Positions 19,772 to 32,860 of a stretch of 64,000 nt of DNA are shown here, in pieces (within the stretch, counting starts at the first letter, position 1; each line of letters starts with the position of its first letter). The translations under genes and the position numbers were made by a program. The notes below the pieces were generated by a model. It did not search any database. It was given only the letters and a program-made list of their open reading frames with translations, and was not told where the DNA came from. This DNA is from Mycobacteriales bacterium (lineage in GTDB: Bacteria > Actinomycetota > Actinomycetes > Mycobacteriales > QHCD01). The DNA is taken from positions 9,217 to 73,216 of the forward strand of contig JBBSHJ010000002.1 in NCBI GenBank assembly GCA_038253135.1, given 5' to 3'.

Positions 19772-22700
19772 CTAGTCCGCGGCCACCTGCACCGGTACGA
19801 CGTGCCGGCGGACCACCAGGACGCCGCGGCCCGGCACCGGGGAGGGGCGCCGGCGGGGCAGCCGCACGCCGAGCAGCTCACCGTCGGCCGGCACCGGCGC
19901 GAGCAACAACCCGGCGCCGGCCTGGCGCAGGGCCGCACCGAGCCCGCGATAGCTGCGGGCGATCCCTTCGCCGTGACCCGCCGCCACCACGAGGACGGCC
20001 CGCGCCTGCATGAGCCCGGTGATCCGCTCGCCGAGCGGGAGGTCCCCGATCAATTCGACGTCGTCGACGAGGATCGCGGCCGGACCGGTCGTGGCGGCCA
20101 GCGCGTCGTCCAGGCGGTCGATCGCGTCGCCGGCACCGGCCGGCACGGTGACGAGCGGGCTGCAGGCGCCGAGCGGCGAGCGGGGTGGTGCGATCACGAC
20201 CACCCGCACGCCCGCGCGGGCGAGCTCGGTGGCGAACCGGGACAGGGCGGTGGACCGGCCGCTGCCCGGCGGACCGGCGATCAGGAACCCCGGCCCGTCG
20301 CCGTCCAGGTCGACCGTGACCGGGTCGGCCGTGTCGCCGCCGAGCCCCAGCACGACCTGCAGCGGGCCGTCCCGGCGAGCGGCCGACAGCGTCCCGGCCG
20401 GAACGCGCTCGGGCAGCGGCACCAGGCGGATCGGGCCGCGGCCGGCGGCCGGCGGGGCCGAGGACTCGGCCAGCGCGCGGAGTGACGCGGCCTGGCTGTG
20501 GCCCGGCGCCGGCGCGAGGATCTGCACCTCGGTGGCCGACTCGGCGAGCAGGCCGCGGCCGGGCGGCAGGTCGATCGGGACCTGCCGGGGGCGGATCCCG
20601 AGCAGGCCGTAGTCGGATCGGTCCGGCAGGGCCAGCGCGATCCGGGTGCCCAGCGTGGTGGGCACCCGAGCGGTGAGCGCGGCGCGATCGCCGGCCACCG
20701 CGACGATGAGGCCGGCACCGGGGCCCTCGCGGATCAGTTTGTGCAGCGACTCGACGGCCGGGCCGGCGTCCAGGCCGTCGTACGCCGCCATGAACCCGTC
20801 CCAGCCATCGAGCAACAGCAGCTGGTACGGCAGGATCGCACCGGTCGCGCGGGCCGCCCGCTGCTCGGCCGGCGACCCGAAGCCGCCGGCCGCGAGCACG
20901 GCCTTGCGGCGGTCGAGCTCGTCGCCGAGCCGGGCGAGCAGGCGCTCGCCGCGGGCGGGGTCCTCGCGGTCGCAGTAGGCGCCGCAGTGCGGCAGGGCCG
21001 TGATCGGGCGGAGCCCGCCGCCGGCGCAGTCGAGCAGGTAGACGTGCAGGTCCTCCGGGCCGAGCCGTCCGGCCGCGGCGATCGCGAGGGTGCGCAGGGC
21101 CGTCGTCCGCCCGGTGCGCGCGGCCCCGGCGATCAGCAGCCCGGTGCCGGCCGCGAGGTCCACCTCGACGGTCGTACGCCGCTGCTCGGCCGGACGGTCG
21201 GCGAGCGCGAACGGCAGCCGCGTCGGCTCCGGCAGGTCACCGGCGGGCATCTCGGCGGCGGGCAGGTCGCGCTCGGTCACGACCCGGGGCAGCGGCGGGA
21301 GCCATGGGCGGCGCGCCCGCGCTGTCGTGCTCGCGCGGATGCGGTCGACCAGATCGGCGAGGTCGGTGCGCCCCGGATCACCGATCCCGGCGTCGGGATC
21401 GGCGCCGGCGCGATCCGGTGGCCAGGCCACCCGGCGTACGTCGACGGAGCGGGACGACCGGCGCCGCAGCGGCGCGCCGACATGGGCCGTTTGGAAGGCG
21501 ACGACGCCCTCGGCCCCGATCCTGGCCACCGCGCGGCCGGGCGTGGCCGCCGAGATCGCGGCGGCGTCGGGACCGTCGATGACGTCCGCGGACTCCGCGG
21601 CGTCGGTGACCCGCAGCGCGATCCGCAGGTTGGTGTTGGCCCGGATCAGCGGCGACACCACGCCTCCGGGACGTTGCGTGGCGAGAACGAGGTGGATGCC
21701 CAGCGACCGGCCGCGCATCGCGATGCCGACCAGCCCGTCCACGAAATCCGGCAGCTCGTCGGCGAGCGTCGCGAACTCGTCGACGACGAGGACGAGCCGG
21801 GGGGGCATCCGCGCTCCGTCCGCGCTGCGGGCCCAGAGGGCGTCGATGTCGGGTACGCCGGCATCGGCGAGGACGCGCTCACGGCGGCGCAGCTCGGCCG
21901 ACAGCGACACGATCGCGCGCTCGGTGAGATGGGGGTCGAGATCGGTCACCATCCCGGCGGTGTGCGGAAGCCGCGCGCAGTCCCGGAAAGCCGCGCCGCC
22001 CTTGTAGTCGATCAGCACGAAGGCCAACCGATCGGGTGCATTGGCGACGGCCAGCGAGGCGATCATGGTCTGCAGCAGCTCGGACTTGCCGGCTCCGGTG
22101 GTGCCGGCGATCAGGACGTGCGGGCCGTGCCGGGCGAGGTCGAGGACGAGCGGCCCGGCGGCCGACTCGCCGAGGACGAAACGCGCACTGGCTCCGGTCG
22201 CGACCGCGTCGCCCGGGAGCGCGCCGAGCAGGTCGAGCAGCCGTGAGCGCGCCGGCAGTCCCCCGCTCTCGTCCGCACCGAGATCGCGCAGCGGGGCGAG
22301 GCGGCGGGCGATCCGCTCCGCCGGTTCCGTCCCCAGCGCGTCGATCGTGACGCCCGCGATCGGGTCCGTGCCGGCGCGGTGCAGGAGCATCTCGCCGCCG
22401 GTCTCCCCCGCGACCACGGCGACCCCTCCGCACGCGGCCGGGAGCACGTTGACGCTGCGGCCCAGGCAGAGGGCGTGGATCCCCACCTCCGGCCCACGCC
22501 GCAGCAGCGTCGCGAAAGCCGGCTCGGCGAGCACCCGGCCCGAGGCGATGACGAGCGTCCGTGGCCCCGGCCACTGCGGGCCCGCCGGTCGGGCCCGCTC
22601 GCGCCCGTCGATGACCCGCAGCATCTCGCCGAGCAGCCGAGCCGATCCGGCGCCATCCCCGGCCACGGCGGGCTCGTCCGCGTCGAGGTGCGGCAGCCAG

Positions 22701-23974
22701 CGCAGCCAGGCCCAGTCCTCCGGCCGGTCGACGAGCACGGCCAGGCCCAGGTCGTCCGGGCTGTGCAGCACCGCGGCCTGGGCGATGAGCGAGCGGGTCA
22801 GCCCCAGCACCGGCCCGGCGGGACCGGCGATGCCGAGCACGCCGCAGTCGACGAGCGGCACGACGACGGGCACGTCGGGCAATACGGGTACGCCGTCCGC
22901 GCGCCCCTCGACGGGCACCCGGGCGGGAAGGTCGGCCGTGCCGATCCGCAGCACCAGCGCGTCGGGGTCGGTCCGCCGCCGCTCCCAGATCCGCTGGGTC
23001 GGGCGGTCCGCGATCCGGCGCAGGACCGCGAGATCCGGTGCCGCGGACCGGCGGGCCCGACGCTCTCGGGTGAGGGCAGCGGCGAGCGCGTCCTCGGCCG
23101 CCGCGGTCGCGGCGGCGTACTCGGCCCGGTCGCGGCGGCGGCCGCGGCGGGCGCCGCGCCGCTCGCTCCAAGCGTTGCCGAGCACCATGACCGGCGAGAG
23201 CAGCATGAACAGCAGGTAGAGCGGCGAGCGCATCCACCAGGCGAGCGCGCCACCGAGGACCAGCGGTGCGAGGGCGCTCACCAGCGGGACCGCCGCGGTG
23301 GTACGCCGCGCGGGCTCGCTCGGGACCACGATCGCGCCGGCATCGCCGGGCCCGGCCAGCCGGGGCGGACGGCGTACCGTCGCCGCCCCGTCGGGCCGCG
23401 CCACCACCGTGGCGGGCGGGTCGTCGGTGCCGGCCACGGTGAGCGTGGTGCGGCCGACGCGGATCCGGGCGTCGGCCGGCACCGGCGTCTCGGTGCCGCC
23501 GGGCAGCCGTACGCCGTCCAACGTGCTGCCGTTGGTCGAGCCCAGGTCCCAGCAGGAGATGCCGTCGGGCTCGGTCAGGATGGCGAGATGCCGGCGGGAG
23601 ACGTCGGGATCGTCGATCACCAGGTCGGCGGTGTGGTCGCGCCCGATCACGACGACCGTGCCCGGTCGCAGGTCCCGGGCCGCGCCGGCGTCCGGGCCGC
23701 CGACCACGAGCAGCGCCAGCACCCCGGCGGGACGGGGGGAGCGCGGGCCGGGCCGGCCGACGCCGAGCAGGCAGCCCGACCTGATCGCGGCGGTGCCGAG
23801 GGCACAGTCGCTGCCGAGCCGGGTCGTGCCGGAGAAGATCGGAGCGCCCGGCCGACCGGCGATCGCCGTCAACCGGCCGGCCACCTCGCCGAGCGTGGCA
23901 CCCGGGGGCGCGTCAATCGTGACATCGCCGGATCCGCCTTCCACGGACGAGACCAGCGTTACGGTGATGCGCAC
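19772..23974 (-). CDS. FHA-domain EssC/EccC-like FtsK/SpoIIIE ATPase with three P-loop domains (type VII secretion-type motor)
   Basis: 1400 aa, GTG start. FHA at aa ~85-180 (VVIGRDHTADLVIDDPDVSRRHLAI..GSTNGSTLDG). Two TM helices at aa ~228-268. Walker A motifs GTTGAGKS, GAARTGRTT and GPPGSGRST. Divergent from a WXG100 gene. Confidence 0.88.
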   Translation of the reverse strand: MRITVTLVSSVEGGSGDVTIDAPPGATLGEVAGRLTAIAGRPGAPIFSGTTRLGSDCALGTAAIRSGCLLGVGRPGPRSPRPAGVLALLVVGGPDAGAARDLRPGTVVVIGRDHTADLVIDDPDVSRRHLAILTEPDGISCWDLGSTNGSTLDGVRLPGGTETPVPADARIRVGRTTLTVAGTDDPPATVVARPDGAATVRRPPRLAGPGDAGAIVVPSEPARRTTAAVPLVSALAPLVLGGALAWWMRSPLYLLFMLLSPVMVLGNAWSERRGARRGRRRDRAEYAAATAAAEDALAAALTRERRARRSAAPDLAVLRRIADRPTQRIWERRRTDPDALVLRIGTADLPARVPVEGRADGVPVLPDVPVVVPLVDCGVLGIAGPAGPVLGLTRSLIAQAAVLHSPDDLGLAVLVDRPEDWAWLRWLPHLDADEPAVAGDGAGSARLLGEMLRVIDGRERARPAGPQWPGPRTLVIASGRVLAEPAFATLLRRGPEVGIHALCLGRSVNVLPAACGGVAVVAGETGGEMLLHRAGTDPIAGVTIDALGTEPAERIARRLAPLRDLGADESGGLPARSRLLDLLGALPGDAVATGASARFVLGESAAGPLVLDLARHGPHVLIAGTTGAGKSELLQTMIASLAVANAPDRLAFVLIDYKGGAAFRDCARLPHTAGMVTDLDPHLTERAIVSLSAELRRRERVLADAGVPDIDALWARSADGARMPPRLVLVVDEFATLADELPDFVDGLVGIAMRGRSLGIHLVLATQRPGGVVSPLIRANTNLRIALRVTDAAESADVIDGPDAAAISAATPGRAVARIGAEGVVAFQTAHVGAPLRRRSSRSVDVRRVAWPPDRAGADPDAGIGDPGRTDLADLVDRIRASTTARARRPWLPPLPRVVTERDLPAAEMPAGDLPEPTRLPFALADRPAEQRRTTVEVDLAAGTGLLIAGAARTGRTTALRTLAIAAAGRLGPEDLHVYLLDCAGGGLRPITALPHCGAYCDREDPARGERLLARLGDELDRRKAVLAAGGFGSPAEQRAARATGAILPYQLLLLDGWDGFMAAYDGLDAGPAVESLHKLIREGPGAGLIVAVAGDRAALTARVPTTLGTRIALALPDRSDYGLLGIRPRQVPIDLPPGRGLLAESATEVQILAPAPGHSQAASLRALAESSAPPAAGRGPIRLVPLPERVPAGTLSAARRDGPLQVVLGLGGDTADPVTVDLDGDGPGFLIAGPPGSGRSTALSRFATELARAGVRVVVIAPPRSPLGACSPLVTVPAGAGDAIDRLDDALAATTGPAAILVDDVELIGDLPLGERITGLMQARAVLVVAAGHGEGIARSYRGLGAALRQAGAGLLLAPVPADGELLGVRLPRRRPSPVPGRGVLVVRRHVVPVQVAAD

Positions 23975-24105
23975 CCCGTGAGTGTGTCCAAGGTCCGCCG
24001 CCGGTACGGCGCGTTGTCCACAGGCTGTGAATGCGGCCAGCGGGGGCAGCGGGTATTTGTCTAGCTTCGGGACGTCGTGTTCTTGCGATGTCCTCAGGAG
24101 GGGTC

Positions 24106-24405
24106 ATGTCGGATCAGGGAATTGTCGTCACGCCGGAAATGCTCAGCGAGCACGCCTCATACGTTCATTCCACGGCTGGGCAGATCACCAGTCTCGTCGG
24201 CGGAATGGGCAGCCGTATGACGCAGCTCGCGGCCAGCAACTGGCGCGGCGGCGCGAGCACCCGGGCGCTGCAGCTGCACGAGGAGATCAAGAAACACCAC
24301 AGTGCGATCATTCAAGCGACCAATGAGTTCGGGCAGCTGATTTCGCGGTCGGCGACGCTTTATGCCGAGAACGAGCAGAATGTCGGTCGCATGTTCATCG
24401 CCTGA
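24106..24405 (+). CDS. WXG100 (ESAT-6-like) family protein
   Basis: 99 aa. ATG 24106 after AGGAGGGG. Central W-x-G (SNWRGGAS). C-terminal YAENE matches the YxxxD/E motif. Confidence 0.85.
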   Translation: MSDQGIVVTPEMLSEHASYVHSTAGQITSLVGGMGSRMTQLAASNWRGGASTRALQLHEEIKKHHSAIIQATNEFGQLISRSATLYAENEQNVGRMFIA

Positions 24406-24438: not shown

Positions 24439-24816
24439 ATGAGCGGTCGAGGTGTCCTTGTTTTCGATGGCGACTGCGGATTCTGCACGTCCTCGGCGCG
24501 GTTTGTCGACCGGCGGGTCCGGCCCGATGCGGATGTCGTCCCGTGGCAGGCGGCTGACCTGACGGCCTTGGGCATCACCGCCGAGCAGGCCCGCGCCGCG
24601 GTCCAATGGGTGGCGCCGGACGGTGCCGTCAGCTCGGGCAGCGACGCGATCGCAGCCGCGCTGCGCAGTGCCGGTGCGCCCTGGCCCGTGTTGGGCCGGG
24701 TGCTGGTGCTGCCGCTGGTGTCGGTGCTGGCGCGGGCGGCGTACCGCGTGGTGTCGGCCAACCGGCAACGGTTGCCCGGGGCTACGCCGGCGTGCTCCGG
24801 CCGGGACGTCAGGTGA
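24439..24816 (+). CDS. thiol-disulfide oxidoreductase DCC family protein (DUF393)
   Basis: N-terminal VLVFDGDCGFCTSSARF motif typical of the DCC family. Confidence 0.85.
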   Translation: MSGRGVLVFDGDCGFCTSSARFVDRRVRPDADVVPWQAADLTALGITAEQARAAVQWVAPDGAVSSGSDAIAAALRSAGAPWPVLGRVLVLPLVSVLARAAYRVVSANRQRLPGATPACSGRDVR

Positions 24817-25814
24817 CCGGGTCCGCGCCGCGGGCGCCCTCGCCCGGCAGCATCGACCGGACCGACGCGAGCCAGGGCTGCTCGTTCGGGCTGCCGAGCG
24901 CCCTCGCGGCCGATTGGATGCTGCCGCGCAGGATGAGCAGCCGCAGCCATCCGCGCTCGACCTTGCCCAAGACGACCTCTTGGCCGTAGCCGGCCAGGAA
25001 TTCCGCACGGGCGGCCGAGGAAATCGGTCTCCAGTGGTGGTAGCCGGTGCCGAGGTGCACGGCGCTCCAGGCCACATCTTCGACGCGACGACCGGGTCGC
25101 GTCTCCTCCAGATCGAGCACGGCGCTGATCCGCTCGTCGTGCCAGAGGATGTTCGCCGCTCGGAAGTCGGTGTTGATCAGCTGCGTCGCCACACCGTCGG
25201 CGGCGACGCCGGCCGCCAGGTGGTCGGCCGCGGAGATCGCGGATGCGAGCGTCGGCTCATCGATGTCATCCGGCGGCCAGCCGGATGACATCGATGTGAT
25301 CGAGGTGGTCCTGGCGATCGCGTCGGACCGCGGGTATTCGGCCAGGGCGCGGTGCAGGCGGCCGAGCACGATGCCGGCGGCCCGGGCCTGGCAGGGACCG
25401 TCCGGATCGAGCAACTTCCCGGGAAAGATGCGCTGCAGGCCGACGGAAAAGGTGATCGCATTGCACCTGCCGGTCACCGGATCGGGCCGGCACCGGGACC
25501 GAGACGGGGACGCCGCGCTCGGGCAGCCAGGCCGTGAGGTCGGCGAGGGCGAGCAGGCGATCGTGCGCGCCCGGATACGCACACGCCTTGGTGAGGAATT
25601 CGCCGTCTTCGCCGGCCAGCCAGAAGATCAGGTTTCCGGCGCTGATCGCCAACCGGTCCACCCGGCGGACGGTGATGCCGTAGCCGTCGGCGAGCTGGGC
25701 CTTGATCCACTGCTGCGCCTCGTCCGGATCGGCGAAACGAAACCGGTTTTGCAGTGCCGTAACGGGATCGGCCGTCTCCCAGAGCATTGTCACCGGGGGA
25801 TCTGAATTCGTCAT
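24809..25814 (-). pseudogene. phosphotransferase (APH/homoserine-kinase-II-like) gene split by a frameshift near 25470-25500
   Basis: The N-terminal half lies in ORF 25266..25814 (to ..GVPVSVPVPA). The C-terminal half lies in ORF 24809..25582 (from ..DPVTGRCNAITFSV.., with catalytic-loop-like NTDFRAANILW and VLDLEE). The two frames overlap at CCGGTGCCGGCCCGATCCGGTGACC. Confidence 0.6.
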
Positions 25815-25985: not shown

Positions 25986-27485
25986 ATGAGCCCCCTTTTG
26001 CGGCGGTCCCGGATTCGCCGGCCGCTGGCCGTCCTCGCGCTGTCTGGGGGCCTCGTTGCGGGAGCGATCGCGCCGCTCGGTGCCGGCGCCGCATCCGCGT
26101 CGCCGAGCCCGATCCAGACGACCAGATGGTCCACGCCGACATACAACCCGCGCTACACCTGGGATGTGCCCGGCGAGCAGTTCTCGTCCCCATCAGTGCT
26201 TTATTACAACGGAAAGACCTACGTCACCGCTGGATTTCCGAACGGGCACATTTACGTCTGGAATGCGTTGACCGGCGGGCGAGTGCTGGATCGCTACGTC
26301 GGCCCCGGCGTCATCGACGCCGCACCGACCATCGTCGACTTTTACCACGACGGCCTTCCCGACATCGTCACCCAGGACACCAATGGCGACGTCGTCGGCT
26401 TCACGCTGAGAAACAAGACGATCTTCAAGGCGAAGTCCGGAGTCGCGTCGTCCAAGCATCCGGGAAACTTCTCCGCCACCAAAATCTTCGACGTCAACAA
26501 GGACGGCCACCTGGACGTGATCCAGACCAGCTGGGACGGCCGACTGCACATCTGGGACGGTCGATACCTGAACGGCGCCCGGTCGACCCGTGAGTTGCCC
26601 GGATTCCCCTACGTCGCCCAGGACACGATCTGGTCGTCTCCTGTCATCGCCGACCTCAACCACGATGGTCGCTGGGACGTCGTCTTCGGTTACGACTGCG
26701 ACGGCGTCTACGGGCAGCGCTGCTACAAGGTCCGCAACTACTACAACCGCGGCGGGTATGTCACGGCGATCAACACGGTCGGCCCGTACCGCGGCGAACC
26801 GCTCTACGGCTGGCCGCGGTTCGTGCACAACCAGACCGTCTGGTCGAGCCCGGCCATCACCGATCTCAACCGTGACGGGAAGCTCGACGTCGTCGTCGGC
26901 ACCGGAAACATGATGACGGGCGGGCAGGAAGTGCTCGCCTACGACCACCAGGGAAATTATGTGAACGGCTGGCCGGTGAAGACCGCGGGGCGGACCACCG
27001 GATCGCCTGCCGTCGGCGACCTAGACGGCGACGGGAAGGTCGAGGTCGTGGAGGCCGACGACAGCGGCTACCTGTACGTCTTCAACAGCAACGGCACTCG
27101 GCGCTTCGTCAAGTGCGTCACCAACAGCCGGACCGGCTGCGGCACGACGCGCTTTCACCCGCATGCGAGCCCGATCATCGCCAACGTCCTCGGTGCGAGG
27201 GGCCACCAGCAGGTCATCGTCGGCGGCGAGCAGCATCTTTACGTCTTCGACGGATCGGGCACGGAGCGGTATCGCGGGATGTTGTGGTGGACCGATCGAC
27301 CCGTCCGCAGCGTGCCCTTCACCGCGGCTCCCACGTATGCCGCCGTACCCGGTCGTACCTCGACCATCTACGTCGCCGCCGGTGAGTCGACCTTCGGTGA
27401 GATCTTCGGCTGGAGCCTCGGCACCAACTACTCCGCGTCGGCGTGGCCGACGTTCCAGCGGACCTTCGCGCACGCCGGCCGGTAG
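25986..27485 (+). CDS. secreted FG-GAP/VCBS-repeat beta-propeller protein
   Basis: Signal peptide with RR (RRSRIRRPLAVLALSGG..GAGAASA). Repeated DxNxDGxxD-type loops (DVNKDGHLDV, DLNHDGRWDVV, DLNRDGKLDVVVG, GDLDGDGKVEVV). Lower GC than the flanks. Confidence 0.75.
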   Translation: MSPLLRRSRIRRPLAVLALSGGLVAGAIAPLGAGAASASPSPIQTTRWSTPTYNPRYTWDVPGEQFSSPSVLYYNGKTYVTAGFPNGHIYVWNALTGGRVLDRYVGPGVIDAAPTIVDFYHDGLPDIVTQDTNGDVVGFTLRNKTIFKAKSGVASSKHPGNFSATKIFDVNKDGHLDVIQTSWDGRLHIWDGRYLNGARSTRELPGFPYVAQDTIWSSPVIADLNHDGRWDVVFGYDCDGVYGQRCYKVRNYYNRGGYVTAINTVGPYRGEPLYGWPRFVHNQTVWSSPAITDLNRDGKLDVVVGTGNMMTGGQEVLAYDHQGNYVNGWPVKTAGRTTGSPAVGDLDGDGKVEVVEADDSGYLYVFNSNGTRRFVKCVTNSRTGCGTTRFHPHASPIIANVLGARGHQQVIVGGEQHLYVFDGSGTERYRGMLWWTDRPVRSVPFTAAPTYAAVPGRTSTIYVAAGESTFGEIFGWSLGTNYSASAWPTFQRTFAHAGR

Positions 27486-28424: not shown

Positions 28425-29296
28425 CGCCCGCCCAGCTGGGGCTGCCCGGCATGCCCGAGCCGCTCTTCGCCTGCACGCCCACCAAGCTCGCGACCTACCG
28501 CGACTGCCCACGGCGCTACCGGATGACCTACGTCGATCGGCCCGCGCCGAGGCGCGGCGGCGCGTTCGCGCACAACTCGATGGGCGCCGCCTGTCACAAC
28601 GCCCTCAAGCAATGGTGGGACCTTCCGCCAGGGCGGCGTACCCCCGCCGCGGGCGGCACGCTGCTGGACGGCGCCTGGACGGACGAGGGATTCCGCGACC
28701 CGCAGCAGTCCGCTTCCTGGCGCGGCCGGGCGCGGCGGTGGGTCGCGGACTACACCCGCGGGCTCGACCCGAGGGTCCAGCCGCCGGGCATCGAGCGGCA
28801 GGTGGCCGCGACGACCGGCCGGCTGGCGATCAGCGGGCGCGTCGACCGCGTCGATGAGCGCGACGGTGAGCTCGTCGTCGTCGACTACAAGACCGGCCGC
28901 CGCGAGCTCGGCACCGACGATGCGCGCGGATCGCAGTCGCTCGCGTTCTACGTGCTCGGCGTACGCCGCACGATGCACCGCCCGTGCACCCAGGTGGAGT
29001 TGCACCACCTGCCGTCCGGGCGGGTCGCGTCGTTCAGCCACGACGACGCGTCGCTGGCCCGGCAGGTACGCCGCGCCGAGCAGACCGCCGCCGACATCAT
29101 CACGGCGACCGACACGGCGGCCGGCGGCGGGCCGCCGGACGAGGTCTTCCCGGCGCGGCCCGGTGCGCAGTGCGGCTGGTGCGACCTTCGGGCGCATTGC
29201 CGGGAGGGCGCGGCGGCGAGCCGGGCGCGGGAGCCGTGGTCGGGCCTGCCCGACGTCGACTCCGATCAGCCGCAGGACAGGGTGCAGACGGCCTAA
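28421..29296 (+). CDS. PD-(D/E)XK nuclease family protein (RecB/Cas4-like with C-terminal Cys cluster)
   Basis: ATG 28421 overlaps the PHP stop (ATGA). GRVDRVDE..ELVVVDYKTG nuclease core. N-terminal Cys (YRDCP) plus C-terminal CGWCDLRAHC. Confidence 0.78.
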   Translation: MTPAQLGLPGMPEPLFACTPTKLATYRDCPRRYRMTYVDRPAPRRGGAFAHNSMGAACHNALKQWWDLPPGRRTPAAGGTLLDGAWTDEGFRDPQQSASWRGRARRWVADYTRGLDPRVQPPGIERQVAATTGRLAISGRVDRVDERDGELVVVDYKTGRRELGTDDARGSQSLAFYVLGVRRTMHRPCTQVELHHLPSGRVASFSHDDASLARQVRRAEQTAADIITATDTAAGGGPPDEVFPARPGAQCGWCDLRAHCREGAAASRAREPWSGLPDVDSDQPQDRVQTA

Positions 29297-29364
29297 CCGC
29301 CCGGTCATCCCGGGCCCGGTATGGCACCGATTGATAACGGTCTTCCGCGCACCACTTCCGTCAC

Positions 29365-29393
29365 TTGACACCAGGGGAGCGACTTCGTACGGT
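29365..29393 (+). promoter_or_regulatory. candidate sigma-70-type promoter TTGACA-17 nt-TACGGT
   Basis: TTGACA at 29365-29370 and TACGGT at 29388-29393, about 115 nt upstream of ATG 29508. Confidence 0.4.
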
Positions 29394-29406
29394 CCTGACA
29401 CACCAG

Positions 29407-29418
29407 TGAAGCGCTTCA
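29407..29418. promoter_or_regulatory. perfect 12-bp palindrome TGAAGCGCTTCA, LacI/GalR-type operator candidate
   Basis: Lies 14 nt downstream of the candidate -10. A LacI-family regulator gene is at 33477..34553. Confidence 0.5.
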
Positions 29419-29507
29419 ATCCGAGCGGTTCAGCAGGTGATTCGACCCCCGCTCTCGGCGGGACGGTCCCGGCCGGGCCGGGACTCGGGCGGGAGGAAAC
29501 GGTCCTG

Positions 29508-32072
29508 ATGGCGCGGCGTGCCGGGGTGCCGCAAGGGGGCACACCGACCGGCCGGCCGGACGCCCCCGGCCCGCTCGCCCCGACGGCCGCGGACCTCACC
29601 GAGAACGGCAAGCGCCAACGCCGGTGGCTGAGCAACAAGGCCAGCAGGATCGTCCTCAACCCGTTCGCGTTCACCTCGACGCGGACACCGCTGGAGCATG
29701 CGGCGGGGCCATCGGTCCCGCTGCACGTCGGGTACTACGTCGGATCGCAGGCACTCGATCGCACCGGGCTGCTCGGCCTCTACCGCCGGGAGCCGGGCGC
29801 GGCCGGGACGGAGCCGGACCGGGTGGGCGTGCTGTGGGCCGACGAGTTCACGGCACTGGAACCGGGGTGGCGTGCGGGAGACGGGGTTCGGGCGGAGTCG
29901 GTGGCGGGGGACCGGCTGCGCCTGACTCTCGCCCGCGGTGGCGCGGACTACTGGGGGGAATGGCGCCGCCGACTGACGATCGCGGCCCGCCGGACGCCGT
30001 ACCTCTCGATCGGTGTCGCGGCGGCGGCGGACGCCTGGGGGCTCCGGATGCGGGTCCCGCCCGGCGCCGGCGGGCACGAGATCGTGGTCGCCGCGGACAC
30101 GACCCGGACCGGCGAGCACACGTTCGCGCTCGAACCGTTGCTCGGTCCCGACCCGGTCGAGGTCGAGATCGTGCTGCGTGTCGCGACCTGGGAGCAGCCG
30201 GCCGAATTCACCCACCTCCGCCTCCTCGCGGTCGATCCGGTGCTCCTCGGCACGGACTCGGTCGACTACTCGTGGGCGCCGCACGAGCTCGGCTTCGCCG
30301 CCGACTACGCCGGTGCCCGGATTGCCGGCACCGACCGCTTCGCCGACCTCGACACGGTCCTGCGCTCGGTCCGCGTCACCGGGGTCGACGCGCACTGGAC
30401 GCTGGCGGGGATGGTCCGCGGCCGGCCGCGCTGGGAACCGCGCCGCCGCACGCTCTCGATCGAGGAGCGCGGCCACTGCTGCGCGATCGCGCTCGGCGAC
30501 GCGGCCGAGCCGGCCGGGACGGTCCGCTACGCCGTGAGCCTGCCGGGGCTGCTCGTCGACGACACCCGGACCCGGCCGTCGCATGCCGCCGACCCGTTCT
30601 ACTGGTCGCTGCCGGTACGCCTGCTCCGCGACGGCCGCGAACGCACCCTGGCCGCGGTGTCCTTCGCGACGGCGGGGGAGGGCGGAGCGGCGGCTGCGGG
30701 GCGGCGCGCCCGGGCCGCCGCCGGGCGGGCTCCCTCGACGGTCGCGCGCGCCCACCGCCGGAAGTGGGACGGCTTCCTGCGGCGCGTCCCGCACCCGCTG
30801 GCGTTCGACCTGTACGGCGTACCCCGGCTCGGCGTGAGCGCCGCCGACGTCCGCCACACCTACTACGCGGCCTGGGCCTTTCTCGCCGCCAATATCCTGC
30901 CGCCGCTGCCGGAGACCGGCTTCGGATATCCGCAGCACGCCACCGGAAAACCGTCGCTCTACGCCGACGGGCCACCGCAGGCGGCGTCGATCGCGTCGTG
31001 GGAATCGCTGTTCGCGATCCAGCTGTGGGCCTACGTCGACCCGGCTGCCGCGTGGGCGGCGTACGCCGGGCTGATGTCGCTGGTCGCCGAGGACGGGGCG
31101 CTGGCCGGCGAGGCGCTGCCGACCCGCAAGGCCCAGACGGCGGCCGTTCTTTCCGGGCTCGCCCGCGACGACGACGCGCTCGCGGCCGTCTATCCGGCGC
31201 TGCGCCGGCACCTGTCGTGGGCCGCCGACAACCCGCGCTGGATCCTGCGCGGGCTGACGCCGCCCGATCAGAAGGACGCGCAGTTCGTGGCCTCGGCGAT
31301 CATCGACCTCGGATATGCGCGCGACCTCGCCGCCCTGCTCGGCTACGCCGACGACGTCCGACGGTGGGAGCGGCTCCGGGCCGAGCTGCTCGCCAACTAT
31401 CTCGACTGGTTCTGGCCGAAGCCGGACTCGCCGCCGAACCTCTTCTACCTGGCCGAGAGCGGGAAACGCGATCCCGGGAACATTCTGTGGATCGCGCCCG
31501 GGCTGCACATCGACCTTCTCCCTCGCGGTTGCCCGCAGCTGGAATCGATGCAGGAGCGCTTCGACGAGACCTTTGACCCGGCCCGGTTCTTTGCCGGCTT
31601 CGCGCAGCCCAAATATCCGGACCTCTCTTATGCCGCAGCGGGTTTGCTCGATCTCGGCCGGACCAAGGATGCGCGGATGCTGCTCAACGCGGCCCTGCGG
31701 GACGTGTGTCGCTCGCACCAGTTCGCCGAGGAATATCACCTGGTCGCAGACGGGTCCGCGGGCAGACCCCGCGCGGACGGATCGGGTGTGCGGCCCTCGG
31801 TATTCGGCGCGGCAATGGTCATCGACGCCGTCTGGCAGAACAATGGCCTGCGCTTTGATCTCGGCCCGCCGGCGCTGGTCCGGCTCGGAAACAATGCCGC
31901 CGCGGTGCGCGGGCTGCGGATCAACGGCCGGCAGCTCGATCTGCACCGGGCGGCCAATTCGGCGACGACCTCGGTCCGCGGCGGCTATGTCGGCGGCGGG
32001 CCGCACGCCGTACGCCTCGCACCCGGCGAGACCCGGCTGCTCGCGGGCGGCCGCCCGCCGGGGCAGGCATGA
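29508..32072 (+). CDS. large putative glycoside hydrolase with C-terminal (alpha/alpha)6-barrel-like domain (GH63/GH37/MGH1-like)
   Basis: ATG 29508 after GGGAGGAAA. 854 aa. C-terminal half (WESLFAIQLWAY, QFAEEYH) resembles (alpha/alpha)6 glycosidases. The family assignment is inference. Confidence 0.5.
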   Translation: MARRAGVPQGGTPTGRPDAPGPLAPTAADLTENGKRQRRWLSNKASRIVLNPFAFTSTRTPLEHAAGPSVPLHVGYYVGSQALDRTGLLGLYRREPGAAGTEPDRVGVLWADEFTALEPGWRAGDGVRAESVAGDRLRLTLARGGADYWGEWRRRLTIAARRTPYLSIGVAAAADAWGLRMRVPPGAGGHEIVVAADTTRTGEHTFALEPLLGPDPVEVEIVLRVATWEQPAEFTHLRLLAVDPVLLGTDSVDYSWAPHELGFAADYAGARIAGTDRFADLDTVLRSVRVTGVDAHWTLAGMVRGRPRWEPRRRTLSIEERGHCCAIALGDAAEPAGTVRYAVSLPGLLVDDTRTRPSHAADPFYWSLPVRLLRDGRERTLAAVSFATAGEGGAAAAGRRARAAAGRAPSTVARAHRRKWDGFLRRVPHPLAFDLYGVPRLGVSAADVRHTYYAAWAFLAANILPPLPETGFGYPQHATGKPSLYADGPPQAASIASWESLFAIQLWAYVDPAAAWAAYAGLMSLVAEDGALAGEALPTRKAQTAAVLSGLARDDDALAAVYPALRRHLSWAADNPRWILRGLTPPDQKDAQFVASAIIDLGYARDLAALLGYADDVRRWERLRAELLANYLDWFWPKPDSPPNLFYLAESGKRDPGNILWIAPGLHIDLLPRGCPQLESMQERFDETFDPARFFAGFAQPKYPDLSYAAAGLLDLGRTKDARMLLNAALRDVCRSHQFAEEYHLVADGSAGRPRADGSGVRPSVFGAAMVIDAVWQNNGLRFDLGPPALVRLGNNAAAVRGLRINGRQLDLHRAANSATTSVRGGYVGGGPHAVRLAPGETRLLAGGRPPGQA

Positions 32073-32860
32073 ACGCACCGTCGATCACCGACACCGCCTA
32101 TACCGTCGGCCGGCCGGCCGTTGAGGAATTCGACGGCCTCGGGTTCACCCGCATCCGCCGGGTCTTCGACGCCCCTGCACTGCGCGACCTGACCGCCGAG
32201 ATCGAGGCGAGGCTGCAGGGCGCACCGACCCACGACGGCGGCGTCCCCGGCTCCTACCTGTGCGTGCCCAACGTGTGGCGGCACGGCGAGGTGGCGGCCA
32301 GATTCGTGCTCTCCCGCCGGCTGGGCCGGATCGCGGCTGACCTGCTCGGCGTGCGGTCGGTCCGGATCCTGTACGACGTCGCGATGATGCGCCGGCCCGG
32401 TGACGGTGCGGTCCCGTGGCACGTGGACCAGGCGCGGTTCCCCTTCAGCAGCGACCGGGTCGTGACGCTGTGCCTGCACCTGCACGATGTGCTGCCCGAG
32501 TGCGGGCCGATCAGCTTCGCCGCGGGCAGCCATCGGCTCGGCCGGGAATGGCTGGCGGCTCCGGCCGACCGGATCGACCCGTCGTCGTACGGCATCGAGG
32601 AGATCAGCACCGAGCAGTTCGCCTCCGGGGATGCCTCCCTGCACCTGGGCTGGACTCTGCACGGCGCGCAGGTCAACCGCAGCGACCGGCCGGTGCTGAC
32701 CCTCGGCATCGTCTACATCGACGGCGACATCGAGGTCGCCGACCCGGTCAGCGAGGCGCAGGCGCGCGAGCTGCGGCGCTGGATGCCGGGCGCCCAGGTG
32801 GGCCGCGTGCCCGACACCCCGATGAACCCCGTCGTCTACCGAGCACCCATCGCCATCTGA
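32069..32860 (+). CDS. phytanoyl-CoA dioxygenase (PhyH) family Fe(II)/2-oxoglutarate oxygenase
   Basis: ATGA overlap with the upstream gene. VPWHVDQ (HxD) and a distal GSHRLG region. Confidence 0.75.
   Translation: MNAPSITDTAYTVGRPAVEEFDGLGFTRIRRVFDAPALRDLTAEIEARLQGAPTHDGGVPGSYLCVPNVWRHGEVAARFVLSRRLGRIAADLLGVRSVRILYDVAMMRRPGDGAVPWHVDQARFPFSSDRVVTLCLHLHDVLPECGPISFAAGSHRLGREWLAAPADRIDPSSYGIEEISTEQFASGDASLHLGWTLHGAQVNRSDRPVLTLGIVYIDGDIEVADPVSEAQARELRRWMPGAQVGRVPDTPMNPVVYRAPIAI

What the first reader, a model, noticed from the sequence alone, without database searches (positions are those of the whole stretch)
19772..24405. Apparently orphan type VII-like pair: FHA-containing triple-ATPase EssC/EccC-like motor divergent from a single WXG100/YxxxE protein
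The 1400-aa protein has the following parts, in order:
- An N-terminal segment of about 75 aa (MRITVTLVSSVEGGSGDVTIDAPPGATLGEVAGRL..) that could be a ubiquitin-like/YukD-like beta-grasp. This is inference only.
- One clear FHA domain.
- Two TM helices.
- Three FtsK/SpoIIIE P-loop domains (GTTGAGKS, GAARTGRTT, GPPGSGRST).

FHA-bearing EssC is the firmicute T7SSb design. Actinobacterial EccC normally lacks FHA and sits with eccB/eccD/eccE/mycP. None of those genes, and no essA/essB/esaA analog, is within 15 kb on either side. The neighbours are a MocR regulator, a DCC oxidoreductase, a broken kinase gene and a Sec/Tat-type FG-GAP protein.

The only candidate substrate is one 99-aa WXG100 protein. 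It combines W-x-G (NWRGG) with a C-terminal YAENE (YxxxD/E) on the same chain.
Basis: partly seen in the sequence, partly recalled or inferred. Interest (0 to 1): 0.6.

Follow-up and report, generated by a model that had tools for sequence, protein, structure and literature searches.

The report
Ubiquitin-FHA-fused type VII motor with WXG100
This gene pair is a real member of a widespread but unstudied family in soil actinobacteria: a type VII secretion motor with a built-in ubiquitin-like domain and a phosphothreonine-reading domain, paired with one small WXG100 substrate, and it works independently of the classical ESX machinery, which is only a decayed remnant in this genome.

Summary
Window 19772-23974(-) encodes a 1400-aa protein with, in order: a ubiquitin-like beta-grasp, one FHA domain with intact phosphothreonine-binding residues, a two-helix membrane hairpin, an EccC-type DUF and three FtsK/SpoIIIE P-loop domains. 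A 99-aa WXG100 gene (24106-24405, W46-x-G48 and Y86-x-x-x-E90) lies divergently, 131 bp away.

It is not a one-off. More than 860 homologues share this design across Actinomycetota. It sits in a conserved chromosomal context, and a WXG100 gene is adjacent in 14 of 19 loci examined.

It is neither a T7SSa EccC nor a T7SSb EssC:
- It scores below all three NCBIfam cut-offs.
- Its D1 domain falls outside a 99/99-supported EccC clade.
- D2 and D3 carry Arg in place of the Walker lysine family-wide.
- Ten of 16 related genomes that carry it have no EccB, and neither does the cultured Geodermatophilus nigrescens DSM 45408.

This genome does hold eccB-eccE and eccD-mycP elsewhere. That locus keeps only about 120 codons of its own eccC, its eccD is frameshifted, and there is no esxAB pair. 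It is a decayed ESX, not the missing half of a split locus.

The most likely function is a phospho-regulated WXG100 export module whose fused Ubl replaces YukD/EccD-Ubl. Export itself and any membrane partners are untested.

The parts
19772..23974 (-). Gene for the 1400-aa Ubl-FHA-2TM-DUF-3xFtsK/SpoIIIE ATPase (GTG start at 23972-23974, stop at 19772-19774)
   Evidence: ORF and translation. Codon-position GC 0.81/0.58/0.93. Pfam and NCBIfam hits. More than 860 homologues of the same length and design.
23750..23974 (-). Residues 1-75: ubiquitin-like beta-grasp domain (beta-beta-alpha-beta-beta-beta), YukD/EccD-N-like
   Evidence: AF2 pLDDT 90.8 on a 34-sequence alignment. Foldseek PDB hits are ubiquitin, SUMO and NEDD8, plus EccD3 chains 6sgz_E and 6sgw_C. 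The profile hits ubiquitin-like PDB chains at E about 0.01, and 3 of 34 members hit Pfam YukD weakly. The domain is conserved across the family.
23435..23719 (-). Residues ~86-180: single FHA domain with intact phosphothreonine-binding residues (G111-R112, S126-x-x-H129, N148-G149)
   Evidence: PF00498 49 bits and PF16697 55.9 bits. The nearest solved relatives are pThr-binding FHAs (OdhI, GarA/Rv1827). G111 is invariant, and R112, S126, N148 and G149 are at least 90% conserved in a 20-sequence family alignment. AF2 gives a beta-sandwich at pLDDT above 90.
23165..23305 (-). Residues ~224-270: two transmembrane helices joined by a 3-residue loop (..VPLVSALAPLVLGGALAWWM-RSP-LYLLFMLLSPVMVLGNAW..), preceded by the family-invariant RPPR motif
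   Evidence: Hydropathy peak at residues 225-247, and direct reading of the sequence. R202-P-P-R205 is invariant.
22205..23107 (-). Residues ~290-590: stalk and EccC-type DUF (degenerate ATPase-like) region
   Evidence: Aligns to the DUF of EccC5 (8rin_A, residues 326-457) and to the DUF regions of T. curvata EccC and B. subtilis YukB.
21470..22177 (-). Residues ~600-835: ATPase domain D1, the only canonical one (Walker A GTTGAGKS 624-631, Walker B LVLVVDE 727-733)
   Evidence: PF01580 best stretch at 607-770. Motifs. Walker A is GTTG[AS]GKS in the family members checked.
20525..21217 (-). Residues ~920-1150: ATPase domain D2, with Arg in place of the Walker lysine (GAARTGRT 950-957) and no Walker B motif picked up by the pattern search
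   Evidence: TIGR03925 alignment covers 873-1271. Motifs. Canonical EccC of related genomes has GKS here.
19775..20347 (-). Residues ~1210-1400: ATPase domain D3, with Arg in place of the Walker lysine (GPPGSGRS 1234-1241) and Walker B-like ILVDD at 1301. By analogy with EccC this is the docking site for the substrate's C-terminal signal.
   Evidence: nSTAND/AAA-type P-loop hits at 1224-1311. Motifs. The role in substrate docking is inferred from published EccC work, not tested here.
23975..24105 (.). 131-bp divergent intergenic region holding both promoters (not mapped) and the WXG100 ribosome-binding site GGAGG at 24097-24101
   Evidence: Sequence read directly.
24106..24405 (+). 99-aa WXG100 protein with W46-R-G48 and C-terminal Y86-A-E-N-E90 on the same chain
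   Evidence: PF06013 51.2 bits and TIGR03930 45.4 bits, both above cut-off. Start codon and SD. Motif positions. Homologous WXG100 genes lie next to the motor in 14 of 19 family loci, and the copies read in full carry YxxxE.

Best explanation
The pair is one copy of a widespread, vertically inherited actinobacterial type VII-like module. It consists of a membrane ATPase of the EccC/EssC superfamily and a single WXG100 substrate. The ATPase carries, fused in cis at its N-terminus, a ubiquitin-like domain and one phosphothreonine-competent FHA domain. The module works independently of the ESX core (EccB/EccD/EccE/MycP).

Proposed mechanism:
- The ATPase oligomerises in the membrane through its TM hairpin, stalk and DUF, as EccC and YukB do (inferred).
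- D1 is the only hydrolytic domain. This is inferred from the motifs: canonical Walker A and B in D1, but Lys-to-Arg P-loops in D2 and D3.
- D2 and D3 act as nucleotide-binding or regulatory and substrate-docking modules (inferred).
- The WXG100 protein forms a homodimeric helical hairpin. Its own C-terminal YxxxE tail is the export signal, read by the C-terminal ATPase domain (inferred from EsxB-EccC work).
- The fused Ubl takes the place of the free YukD/EsaB of T7SSb, or of the Ubl of EccD in T7SSa. In B. subtilis that protein clamps the FHA and DUF regions of YukB (PMC12637312). Here the clamp is built in (inferred).
- The FHA domain reads a phosphothreonine made by one of the genome's Hanks-type kinases acting in trans, and so gates assembly or activity (inferred).

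Shown here: the domain architecture, the conserved pairing with WXG100, the phyletic independence from EccB, and the decay of the resident ESX locus. Not shown: that anything is exported, and what else, if anything, forms the channel.
For: Architecture.

Family size and spread: 864 hits at E <= 0.001 among the candidates scored. The best 120 are 1050-1584 aa, nearly all 1360-1590, with FHA + FtsK_SpoIIIE on record for most. Named sources include Mycobacteriales, Pseudonocardiales, Frankiales, Blastococcus, Jatrophihabitans, Cellulomonas, Oryzihumus, Streptomyces and Acidimicrobiales, plus Geodermatophilus and Jiangellales.

Vertical inheritance: the same flanking genes (WS/DGAT, patatin, aldehyde dehydrogenase, MocR, then PHP and a LacI-family regulator) recur in same-family genomes.

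Conserved partner: a WXG100 gene is adjacent in 14 of 19 loci, with W-x-G and YxxxE in the copies read.

Not a T7SSa EccC:
- Below the TIGR03924 and TIGR03925 cut-offs.
- The EccC clade (T. curvata, EccC5 and the canonical EccCs of relatives) has 99/99 support and excludes the family's D1.
- For the DUF+D1 region, the best single stretch is 182.7 bits to YukB, against 165.1 bits to T. curvata EccC.
- Canonical EccCs have GKS in all three P-loops, whereas the family has GR[ST] in D2 and D3.

Independence from ESX: of 21 genomes, 16 carry the family and 10 of those have no EccB. These include genomes that are 97-100% complete and one single-contig genome. Where EccB exists, a canonical EccC of about 1330-1360 aa usually lies 2-5 kb from it. 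G. nigrescens DSM 45408 has the family and no EccB.

The genome's own ESX is decayed:
- Contigs C127 and C151 overlap by 141 nt. Together they carry only residues ~14-121 of a canonical eccC, with a frame change, followed by rmuC/ychF.
- eccD is split over two frames.
- There is only one true WXG100 gene in the genome and no YukC/EssB.

Kinases are available in trans: 8 Pkinase domains, none on this contig.

Mechanistic precedent for a Ubl-FHA-DUF clamp: PMC12637312. Precedent for pThr-competent FHA on TsdC/TseC: PMC11217815. FHA-EccC fusions as signalling outputs: PMC13622651.
Against: - No export has been shown for any member of this family.
- No conserved membrane partner was found next to the gene in any locus. 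Every studied T7SS needs further membrane components.
- The Arg-for-Lys P-loops in D2 and D3 could mean a different use of the motor.
- A related Streptomyces family keeps Ubl+FHA+DUF+one P-loop domain but shows no TM segment. The N-terminal cassette is therefore not tied to membrane translocation.
- Five of 19 loci lack an adjacent WXG100.
- The genome is 91% complete, so partners could lie in the missing part.
- The relation to T7SSd TsdC could not be tested for lack of sequences.
Confidence: 0.6

Rival explanations
1. Split ESX locus. The FHA-bearing ATPase is the working EccC of the eccB-eccE and eccD-mycP genes found on other contigs, and the adjacent WXG100 is the ESX substrate.
For: The genome holds EccB (296 bits), an EccE-like gene, EccD and a mycosin on contigs C48 and C127. 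It has no other intact EccC and no other true WXG100.
Against: - That locus has a remnant of its own canonical eccC (residues ~14-121 only), divergent from eccD and then cut off by rmuC/ychF.
- eccD is frameshifted.
- In relatives, every ESX locus examined but one has its own canonical EccC beside EccB, while the FHA-type gene is present in 10 genomes without any EccB.
- D1 lies outside the EccC clade.
Confidence: 0.07
2. Not a secretion system. The protein is an FtsK-like motor used for something else, such as DNA or protein handling at septa, or development as with Streptomyces SffA- or TraB-type proteins. The WXG100 protein would then be a cytoplasmic adaptor or regulator.
For: - No accessory membrane components are conserved beside it.
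- D2 and D3 have non-canonical P-loops.
- D1 is closest in character to FtsK/YukB (ATQRPGG motif) and sits near the FtsK/YukB attachment point in the tree.
- A TM-less Streptomyces relative with the same Ubl-FHA head exists.
Against: - The full EccC/EssC body plan (TM hairpin, stalk, DUF, three ATPase domains) is present, with whole-length matches to the EssC and EccC models.
- The one conserved neighbour is a WXG100 protein carrying the canonical export signal YxxxE. This is the universal pairing of type VII systems (PMC11217815).
Confidence: 0.15
3. An output arm of an Esr-type threat-sensing pathway, i.e. an EsrG(FHA)-EccC fusion as noted by Wang et al. 2026. [quoted passage not shown]
For: FHA-EccC fusions are reported as Esr outputs (PMC13622651). 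The FHA pocket is intact. A secreted FG-GAP beta-propeller protein lies 1.6 kb away (25986-27485).
Against: - No MoxR, vWA, kinase or phosphatase gene was found among the genes scanned, up to about 10 kb downstream of the WXG100 gene and 7 kb beyond the motor's 3' end. None appeared in the conserved flanks of relatives.
- No Pkinase domain lies on this contig.
- The FG-GAP gene is not conserved next to the family in any other locus.
- Esr is reported as rare outside Actinomycetales and Propionibacteriales.
- This reading is compatible with the best explanation as a special case of kinase gating.
Confidence: 0.1

Closest known systems
T7SSd TsdC/TsdA of Actinomycetota (Olsenella, Bifidobacterium; Garrett, Higginson & Palmer 2024, PMC11217815)
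   Same: Same phylum. The motor has an N-terminal FHA whose phosphothreonine-binding residues are conserved. A single WXG100 partner. No EccB/EccD/MycP.
   Different: T7SSd loci also encode a Ser/Thr kinase (TsdD), TsdH and the large TsdI next to the motor, and are reported to have no ubiquitin-like component at all. Here no kinase or large envelope protein is adjacent, and a ubiquitin-like domain is fused to the motor. Sequence kinship to TsdC could not be tested.
T7SSb EssC/YukB with YukD/EsaB (B. subtilis, S. aureus; PMC12637312)
   Same: FHA in front of the TM hairpin, DUF and three ATPase domains. A ubiquitin-like protein belongs to the machine and binds the FHA and DUF regions. A single homodimer-type WXG100. 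The best single-stretch PDB score for DUF+D1 is to YukB (182.7 bits).
   Different: EssC has two FHA domains that lack the phosphothreonine pocket and bind the pseudokinase EssB/YukC. Here there is one FHA with an intact pocket, and no YukC in the genome. The Ubl is fused rather than free. The score is 468.8 bits against a 778.4-bit cut-off for TIGR03928.
T7SSa EccC of ESX systems (T. curvata EccC 4nh0; mycobacterial EccC5)
   Same: Actinobacterial host, TM hairpin, DUF and three FtsK-type domains. The best whole-protein PDB match is 4nh0 (256 bits).
   Different: EccC has no Ubl or FHA head, and its Ubl sits on EccD. It has GKS in all three P-loops and lies with eccB/eccD/mycP. It forms a clade with 99/99 support that excludes this family. 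NCBIfam cut-offs are not reached.
EsrG(FHA)-EccC fusions of Esr-linked Esx systems (Wang et al. 2026 preprint, PMC13622651)
   Same: An FHA signalling module translationally fused to the type VII ATPase in Actinomycetes. This implies post-translational, phosphorylation-dependent control of secretion.
   Different: Those fusions are described in the context of Esr gene sets (beta-propeller sensor, MoxR, vWA, kinase/phosphatase), which are absent around this locus. No ubiquitin-like domain is mentioned there.

Membership tests
T7SSa EccC (ESX motor) | TM hairpin + DUF + three FtsK/SpoIIIE ATPase domains | tested here: met
T7SSa EccC (ESX motor) | Scores above the curated NCBIfam cut-offs for EccCa (TIGR03924) and EccCb (TIGR03925) | tested here: not met
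   335.8 bits against a cut-off of 509.15, and 334.3 bits against 346.55.
T7SSa EccC (ESX motor) | Encoded with, and co-occurring with, eccB/eccD/mycP | tested here: not met
   None found among the genes scanned on either side. Ten of 16 related genomes with the family have no EccB, and neither does G. nigrescens.
T7SSa EccC (ESX motor) | Branches inside the EccC clade | tested here: not met
   In the D1 tree, the EccC clade has 99/99 support and excludes all family members. The tree has only one T7SSb representative and long outgroup branches.
T7SSb EssC | Two N-terminal FHA domains lacking the pThr pocket, which bind the pseudokinase EssB/YukC | tested here: not met
   One FHA with R112, S126, H129 and N148 intact. 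No PF10140 match in the genome.
T7SSb EssC | Scores above the NCBIfam TIGR03928 cut-off | tested here: not met
   468.8 bits against a cut-off of 778.4.
T7SSd TsdC (Garrett et al. 2024) | Actinomycetota motor with N-terminal FHA that keeps the pThr-binding consensus, plus one WXG100 | tested here: met
   Definition taken from PMC11217815.
T7SSd TsdC (Garrett et al. 2024) | Locus also encodes the kinase TsdD, TsdH and the large Ig-rich TsdI, and has no ubiquitin-like component | tested here: not met
   No kinase on the contig. No such neighbours here or in relatives. A Ubl is present. There are no models for TsdH or TsdI, so their absence rests on there being no conserved unknown neighbour.
T7SSd TsdC (Garrett et al. 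2024) | Sequence or phylogenetic grouping with TsdC | not testable with these tools
   No TsdC sequence could be obtained.
WXG100 (EsxA-like substrate) | Family model above cut-off, about 100 aa, central W-x-G | tested here: met
   PF06013 51.2 bits (cut-off 27.3) and TIGR03930 45.4 bits (cut-off 44.85). 99 aa, with W46-R-G48.
WXG100 (EsxA-like substrate) | C-terminal YxxxD/E export signal | tested here: met
   Y86-AEN-E90. Also present in the copies from relatives that were read.
WXG100 (EsxA-like substrate) | Actually exported in a motor-dependent way | not testable with these tools
   Needs secretome work in a cultured carrier.
Esr-linked EsrG-EccC fusion (Wang et al. 2026) | FHA fused to the type VII ATPase | tested here: met
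Esr-linked EsrG-EccC fusion (Wang et al. 2026) | Esr gene set (beta-propeller EsrA, MoxR, vWA, kinase/phosphatase) present and usually adjacent | tested here: not met
   Not adjacent.
YukD/EsaB-type ubiquitin-like T7SS component | Ubiquitin beta-grasp fold without a C-terminal Gly-Gly, associated with a T7SS motor | tested here: met
   AF2 pLDDT 90.8. Foldseek hits to ubiquitin-like folds and the EccD3 N-domain. At the sequence level only 3 of 34 members touch PF08817, best E 0.029. Membership is therefore by fold and context, not by the Pfam model.

The most novel reading that the evidence does not exclude
The Ubl-FHA-EccC protein and its WXG100 partner are a complete, self-sufficient minimal type VII secretion system. 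A hexamer of the motor, with 12 TM helices, is the whole translocon. The fused Ubl and the phospho-reading FHA do in cis what YukD/EssB or EccD do in trans. The slowly evolving, FtsK-like D1 marks it as close to the ancestral form from which T7SSa and T7SSb diverged.
Probability: 0.15. Interest if true: 0.85.

Novelty: new variant of a known kind. Interest (0 to 1): 0.55.

Why it matters
Type VII secretion is understood from two elaborate machines: mycobacterial ESX and firmicute T7SSb. Each needs several membrane partners and a ubiquitin-like component whose role was clarified only in 2025.

This family packs the ubiquitin-like element and a phosphothreonine reader onto the motor itself. It keeps only a WXG100 gene beside it, and it is common in soil actinomycetes, including cultured and tractable genera such as Geodermatophilus, Blastococcus, Cellulomonas and Streptomyces. 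That gives a simple test bed for three open questions:
- What is the minimal type VII translocon?
- What does the ubiquitin-like domain do?
- How does Ser/Thr phosphorylation gate secretion?

It also matters for annotation. These genes are currently named "FtsK/SpoIIIE domain-containing" or "cell division protein FtsK". The T7SSa-j scheme found in the searchable literature does not mention this soil-actinomycete group. Finally, this genome shows that an ESX system can decay while the Ubl-FHA module is retained.

Tried and rejected
- **Split-locus idea.** I pursued it through whole-genome searches for WXG100, FtsK_SpoIIIE, EccB, YukD and YukC. I rejected it after finding the eccC remnant at the C127/C151 junction.
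- **Conserved accessory genes.** I looked for them by clustering the neighbours of 16 loci and scanning the recurrent ones in Pfam. All were housekeeping genes: DUF6758, bPH_2, MarC, PD-(D/E)XK, LacI, patatin, and a TDO-like gene between motor and WXG100 in three loci.
- **Nearby kinase.** None found on the contig.
- **Class-wide co-occurrence.** The phyletic argument therefore rests on 21 + 5 genomes.
- **The search for related loci.** A broad N-terminal alignment had no usable conserved stretch. A narrower one worked, but most of its hits were FHA-only proteins or a different Streptomyces family.
- **Placement against TsdC and more EssC sequences.** Not possible. Only YukB, EccC5 and T. curvata EccC could be taken from PDB alignments, so the tree shows exclusion from T7SSa but not a sister group.
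- **SCO4508.** My recollection that this S. coelicolor gene might be a characterised member gave no usable literature.


Full report
**What is there**

Window 19772-23974 (minus strand) is one open frame of 1400 codons with the strong third-position GC bias (0.93) of real genes in this roughly 72% GC genome.

Pfam finds one FHA domain (residues 108-174, E 8e-13; also the FHA-like Yop-YscD_cpl model at 90-180) and three stretches of FtsK_SpoIIIE (E 2e-56). NCBIfam aligns it almost end to end to the firmicute EssC model (468.8 bits, residues 201-1223) and to the two halves of actinobacterial EccC (335.8 and 334.3 bits). All three scores are below the curated cut-offs of 778.4, 509.15 and 346.55.

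Direct reading and a hydropathy scan show a single hairpin of two membrane helices at about 224-270. The P-loops are GTTGAGKS (624), GAARTGRT (950) and GPPGSGRS (1234). A canonical Walker B (LVLVVDE, 727) is found only in the first domain.

The divergent gene is a WXG100 protein (PF06013 51.2 bits, TIGR03930 45.4 bits, both above cut-off). Its real start is ATG 24106, four bases after GGAGG (24097-24101). The two start codons are 131 bp apart.

The neighbours are metabolic or regulatory genes with no link to secretion: WS/DGAT, aldehyde dehydrogenase, an FMN-binding protein, GNAT, a MocR-type regulator, DCC1, an N-terminally truncated APH-family gene, an FG-GAP protein, PHP, PhyH and LacI.

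**The N-terminal head**

The first ~75 residues are conserved across homologues, with a consensus like M-R-x-x-L-T-x-V...D-V-x-V-x-A..G-T-x-L..V...L......G..L....A-x-L-G...L-R-x-G-A-x-L.

- A profile of 34 such segments hits almost only ubiquitin-like chains in the PDB, though weakly (best E 0.01). Three of the 34 members touch Pfam YukD (best E 0.029).
- AlphaFold2 on that alignment gives a confident beta-beta-alpha-beta-beta-beta model (pLDDT 90.8, pTM 0.78).
- Foldseek matches the model to ubiquitin, NEDD8 and SUMO. With the highest sequence identities in the list (20-21%), it also matches chains of the ESX-3 core complex, which I read as the ubiquitin-like N-domain of EccD3 (6sgz_E, 6sgw_C).

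A model of residues 1-207 keeps both domains confident, but the linker (75-90) less so and pTM is 0.58. The mutual orientation of the two domains is not fixed by the prediction.

In a 20-sequence family alignment G111 is invariant, and R112, S126, N148 and G149 are at least 90% conserved. H129 is present in this protein. By established knowledge of FHA domains these are the phosphothreonine-contacting residues. The nearest solved FHA relatives are pThr readers (OdhI, GarA/Rv1827), not the EssC FHAs.

**It is a family, not an oddity**

A search of the 5.8-billion-protein collection gave 864 hits at E <= 0.001 among the candidates scored. The best 120 are nearly all 1360-1590 aa. Most carry FHA plus FtsK_SpoIIIE on record, and they are 39-57% identical over the full length. 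Sources name them only "FtsK/SpoIIIE domain-containing", "FHA domain-containing" or "cell division protein FtsK".

Named sources include Mycobacteriales, Pseudonocardiales and Frankiales MAGs, Blastococcus, Jatrophihabitans, Cellulomonas, Oryzihumus, Streptomyces and Acidimicrobiales. Geodermatophilus nigrescens DSM 45408 and a Jiangellales MAG were added.

In genomes of the same family as the window's organism, the gene sits between the same flanking genes: WS/DGAT, patatin, aldehyde dehydrogenase and MocR on one side, and PHP and a LacI-family regulator further on the other. It is therefore inherited vertically.

A profile built from the adjacent small genes finds a WXG100 gene directly beside the motor in 14 of 19 family loci. 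The copies I read all have W-x-G (or a close variant) and a C-terminal YxxxE. Nothing else recurs beside the pair except housekeeping genes.

A family-wide trait separates it from classical EccC. D1 has GTTG[AS]GKS, but D2 and D3 have Arg where the Walker lysine should be (GxxR[ST]GR[ST] and GPxxSGR[ST]). The canonical EccCs of two related genomes have GKS in all three.

The assembly (3.33 Mb, 163 contigs, 91% complete) contains:
- Only one EccC-like gene besides FtsK.
- Only one true WXG100.
- No YukC/EssB.
- EccB (296 bits) divergent from an EccE-like gene on contig C48, beside ispH and xseA.
- EccD followed by a mycosin on the 7.8-kb contig C127.

At face value this is the "ESX locus that lacks its own EccC". 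Three results argue that it is a decayed ESX instead.

1. A canonical EccC from a relative, used as a tblastn query, finds a remnant on the minus strand at the very start of C127 (residues 14-96) and at the start of C151 (residues 79-121). The two contig starts are reverse complements over 141 nt, so they join. Only about 120 N-terminal codons of eccC remain, divergent from eccD and with a frame change between the two TM helices. The sequence then runs into rmuC and ychF.
2. eccD is split between two reading frames.
3. There is no esxA/esxB pair.

The truncation of eccC does not depend on single bases.

**Phyletic pattern**

Among the window's genome and 20 relatives, 16 carry the Ubl-FHA family (some cut by contig ends) and 8 carry EccB. 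Ten carry the family without EccB, among them genomes rated 93-100% complete and one single-contig genome. Two carry EccB without the family.

In all but one genome with EccB, a separate canonical EccC lies 2-5 kb from EccB. It is about 1330-1360 aa, 33-37% identical to the query, and aligns only from about residue 150-270 onward. Geodermatophilus nigrescens and three of four further named genomes also have the family and no EccB. The family does not depend on the ESX core.

**Where it sits among type VII motors**

- Over the whole protein, the best solved relative is T. curvata EccC (256 bits), then EccC5 (201) and B. subtilis YukB (199).
- For the DUF+D1 region, the best single stretch is to YukB (182.7 bits) rather than T. 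curvata EccC (165.1).
- A maximum-likelihood tree of D1 included 28 family and paralogous sequences, four T7SSa EccCs, YukB and the genome's own FtsK as outgroup. It puts the T7SSa EccCs in a clade with 99/99 support on a long branch that excludes the family. The family's D1 sequences are short-branched and unresolved around the attachment points of YukB and FtsK.
- With one T7SSb sequence and long outgroup branches, this shows exclusion from T7SSa and not a sister group.

**Literature**

- Garrett, Higginson and Palmer (2024, PMC11217815) define T7SSc-j. T7SSd of Olsenella and Bifidobacterium has an FHA-bearing TsdC with a conserved pThr pocket and one WXG100. It also has a kinase, TsdH and a large TsdI, and explicitly no ubiquitin-like component. 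Streptomyces is not mentioned.
- Wang et al. (2026 preprint, PMC13622651) report "numerous instances" of the FHA output protein EsrG fused to EccC in Esr-linked Esx systems, and show that such an Esx defends Schaalia against Saccharibacteria. No ubiquitin-like domain is mentioned.
- Oka et al. (2025, PMC12637312) show by cryo-EM that free YukD binds the FHA domains, the DUF and a hairpin of ATPase-1 of YukB, and thereby lets YukC bind.
- Iyer et al. (2006, PMC1779556) state that actinobacterial YukD-like domains are always fused to the 12-TM protein, i.e. EccD.

I found no description of the Ubl-FHA-motor fusion in the searchable literature. Two earlier notes of this scan describe the same architecture in other genomes.

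**How it most likely works**

- Shown: the architecture, the conserved pairing with WXG100, the independence from ESX and the local ESX decay.
- Inferred from the known systems: the motor oligomerises in the membrane. D1 hydrolyses ATP, while the Arg-substituted D2 and D3 bind nucleotide and substrate. The WXG100 homodimer presents its own YxxxE tail to the C-terminal domain.
- Also inferred: the cis-fused Ubl does what YukD or the EccD Ubl does in trans, clamping the FHA and DUF region. The FHA reads a phosphothreonine made by one of the genome's Hanks kinases, of which there are 8 domains and none on this contig, so that assembly or activity is gated by phosphorylation.
- Open: whether further membrane proteins are needed and where they are encoded.
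- One candidate additional substrate exists: a 716-aa protein on contig C39 with an N-terminal WXG100_2 domain (35.1 bits, cut-off 27).

**Rivals**

- The split-ESX reading is now unlikely (0.07).
- A non-secretory use of the motor cannot be excluded (0.15). No partner is conserved, and a Streptomyces relative with the same head has one P-loop domain and no TM segment.
- An Esr-type input is possible, but there is no Esr gene set nearby (0.10).

**Verdict**

This is a new variant of a known kind: a type VII motor plus WXG100 with a cis Ubl-FHA head and degenerate D2 and D3 domains, independent of ESX. It is widespread, misannotated as FtsK, and present in cultured genera. Interest is moderate to high because it offers a simple system for questions about the minimal translocon, the role of the ubiquitin-like component and phospho-gating. 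No function has yet been shown.

Noticed in passing
G000 contigs C127 (L009 1-3296), C151 (L125 1-510) and C48 (L008 10332-12940): A decayed canonical ESX locus. A roughly 120-codon eccC remnant spans the C127/C151 junction (141-nt overlap) and runs into rmuC/ychF. eccD is split over two frames and is followed by an intact-looking mycosin. eccB is divergent from an EccE-like gene beside ispH/xseA. The genome has no esxAB pair.
   Followed up: yes
G000 contig C39, L010 1715-3865 (+): A 716-aa protein whose first ~100 residues match the WXG100_2 domain (PF25547, 35.1 bits). The rest has no Pfam match. It is a candidate large type VII substrate or polymorphic-toxin-like protein, encoded between DNA-glycosylase genes.
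   Followed up: partly
L051-L080 (Streptomyces genomes), e.g. L062 9524-13381: A separate Streptomyces family of about 1150-1500 aa has the same Ubl + FHA head. It continues with a long low-complexity linker with no visible TM segment, an EccC-DUF-like region and only one P-loop domain (GPxGSGRT). The Ubl-FHA cassette is therefore reused on a truncated, probably soluble relative.
   Followed up: partly
L041 12228-14070 (genome G012, single-contig): Downstream of a divergent family member lie three tandem WXG100-like genes. Two are near-identical (~91-97 aa). The third is 370 aa with a long Gly/Ala/Ser-rich C-terminal extension, so it looks like a WXG100-headed larger substrate.
   Followed up: no
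L035 9277-12313 and L037 13239-15322: Second, more divergent copies of the motor (1576-1597 aa, with long Pro/Gly-rich inserts after the Ubl) lie next to CpaF-type ATPase and ParA/CpaE-like genes of a Tad-pilus-like set, and have no adjacent WXG100.
   Followed up: no
window 28854-32072 (+) / 29430-32078 (-): A 1072-aa ORF (and an 882-aa ORF on the opposite strand) with coding-like GC3 but no Pfam match at E < 0.01. It is not conserved next to the motor in relatives.
   Followed up: no
window 24809-25582 (-): An APH-family (phosphotransferase) ORF that matches only positions 92-231 of the 239-position profile. Another APH pseudogene was noted elsewhere in this genome by an earlier report.
   Followed up: no
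L032 6941-7888, L034 4432-5235, L036 9778-10683: In three relatives, a gene that by eye looks like tryptophan 2,3-dioxygenase is inserted between the motor and its WXG100 gene. The divergent pair can be split by unrelated cargo.
   Followed up: no
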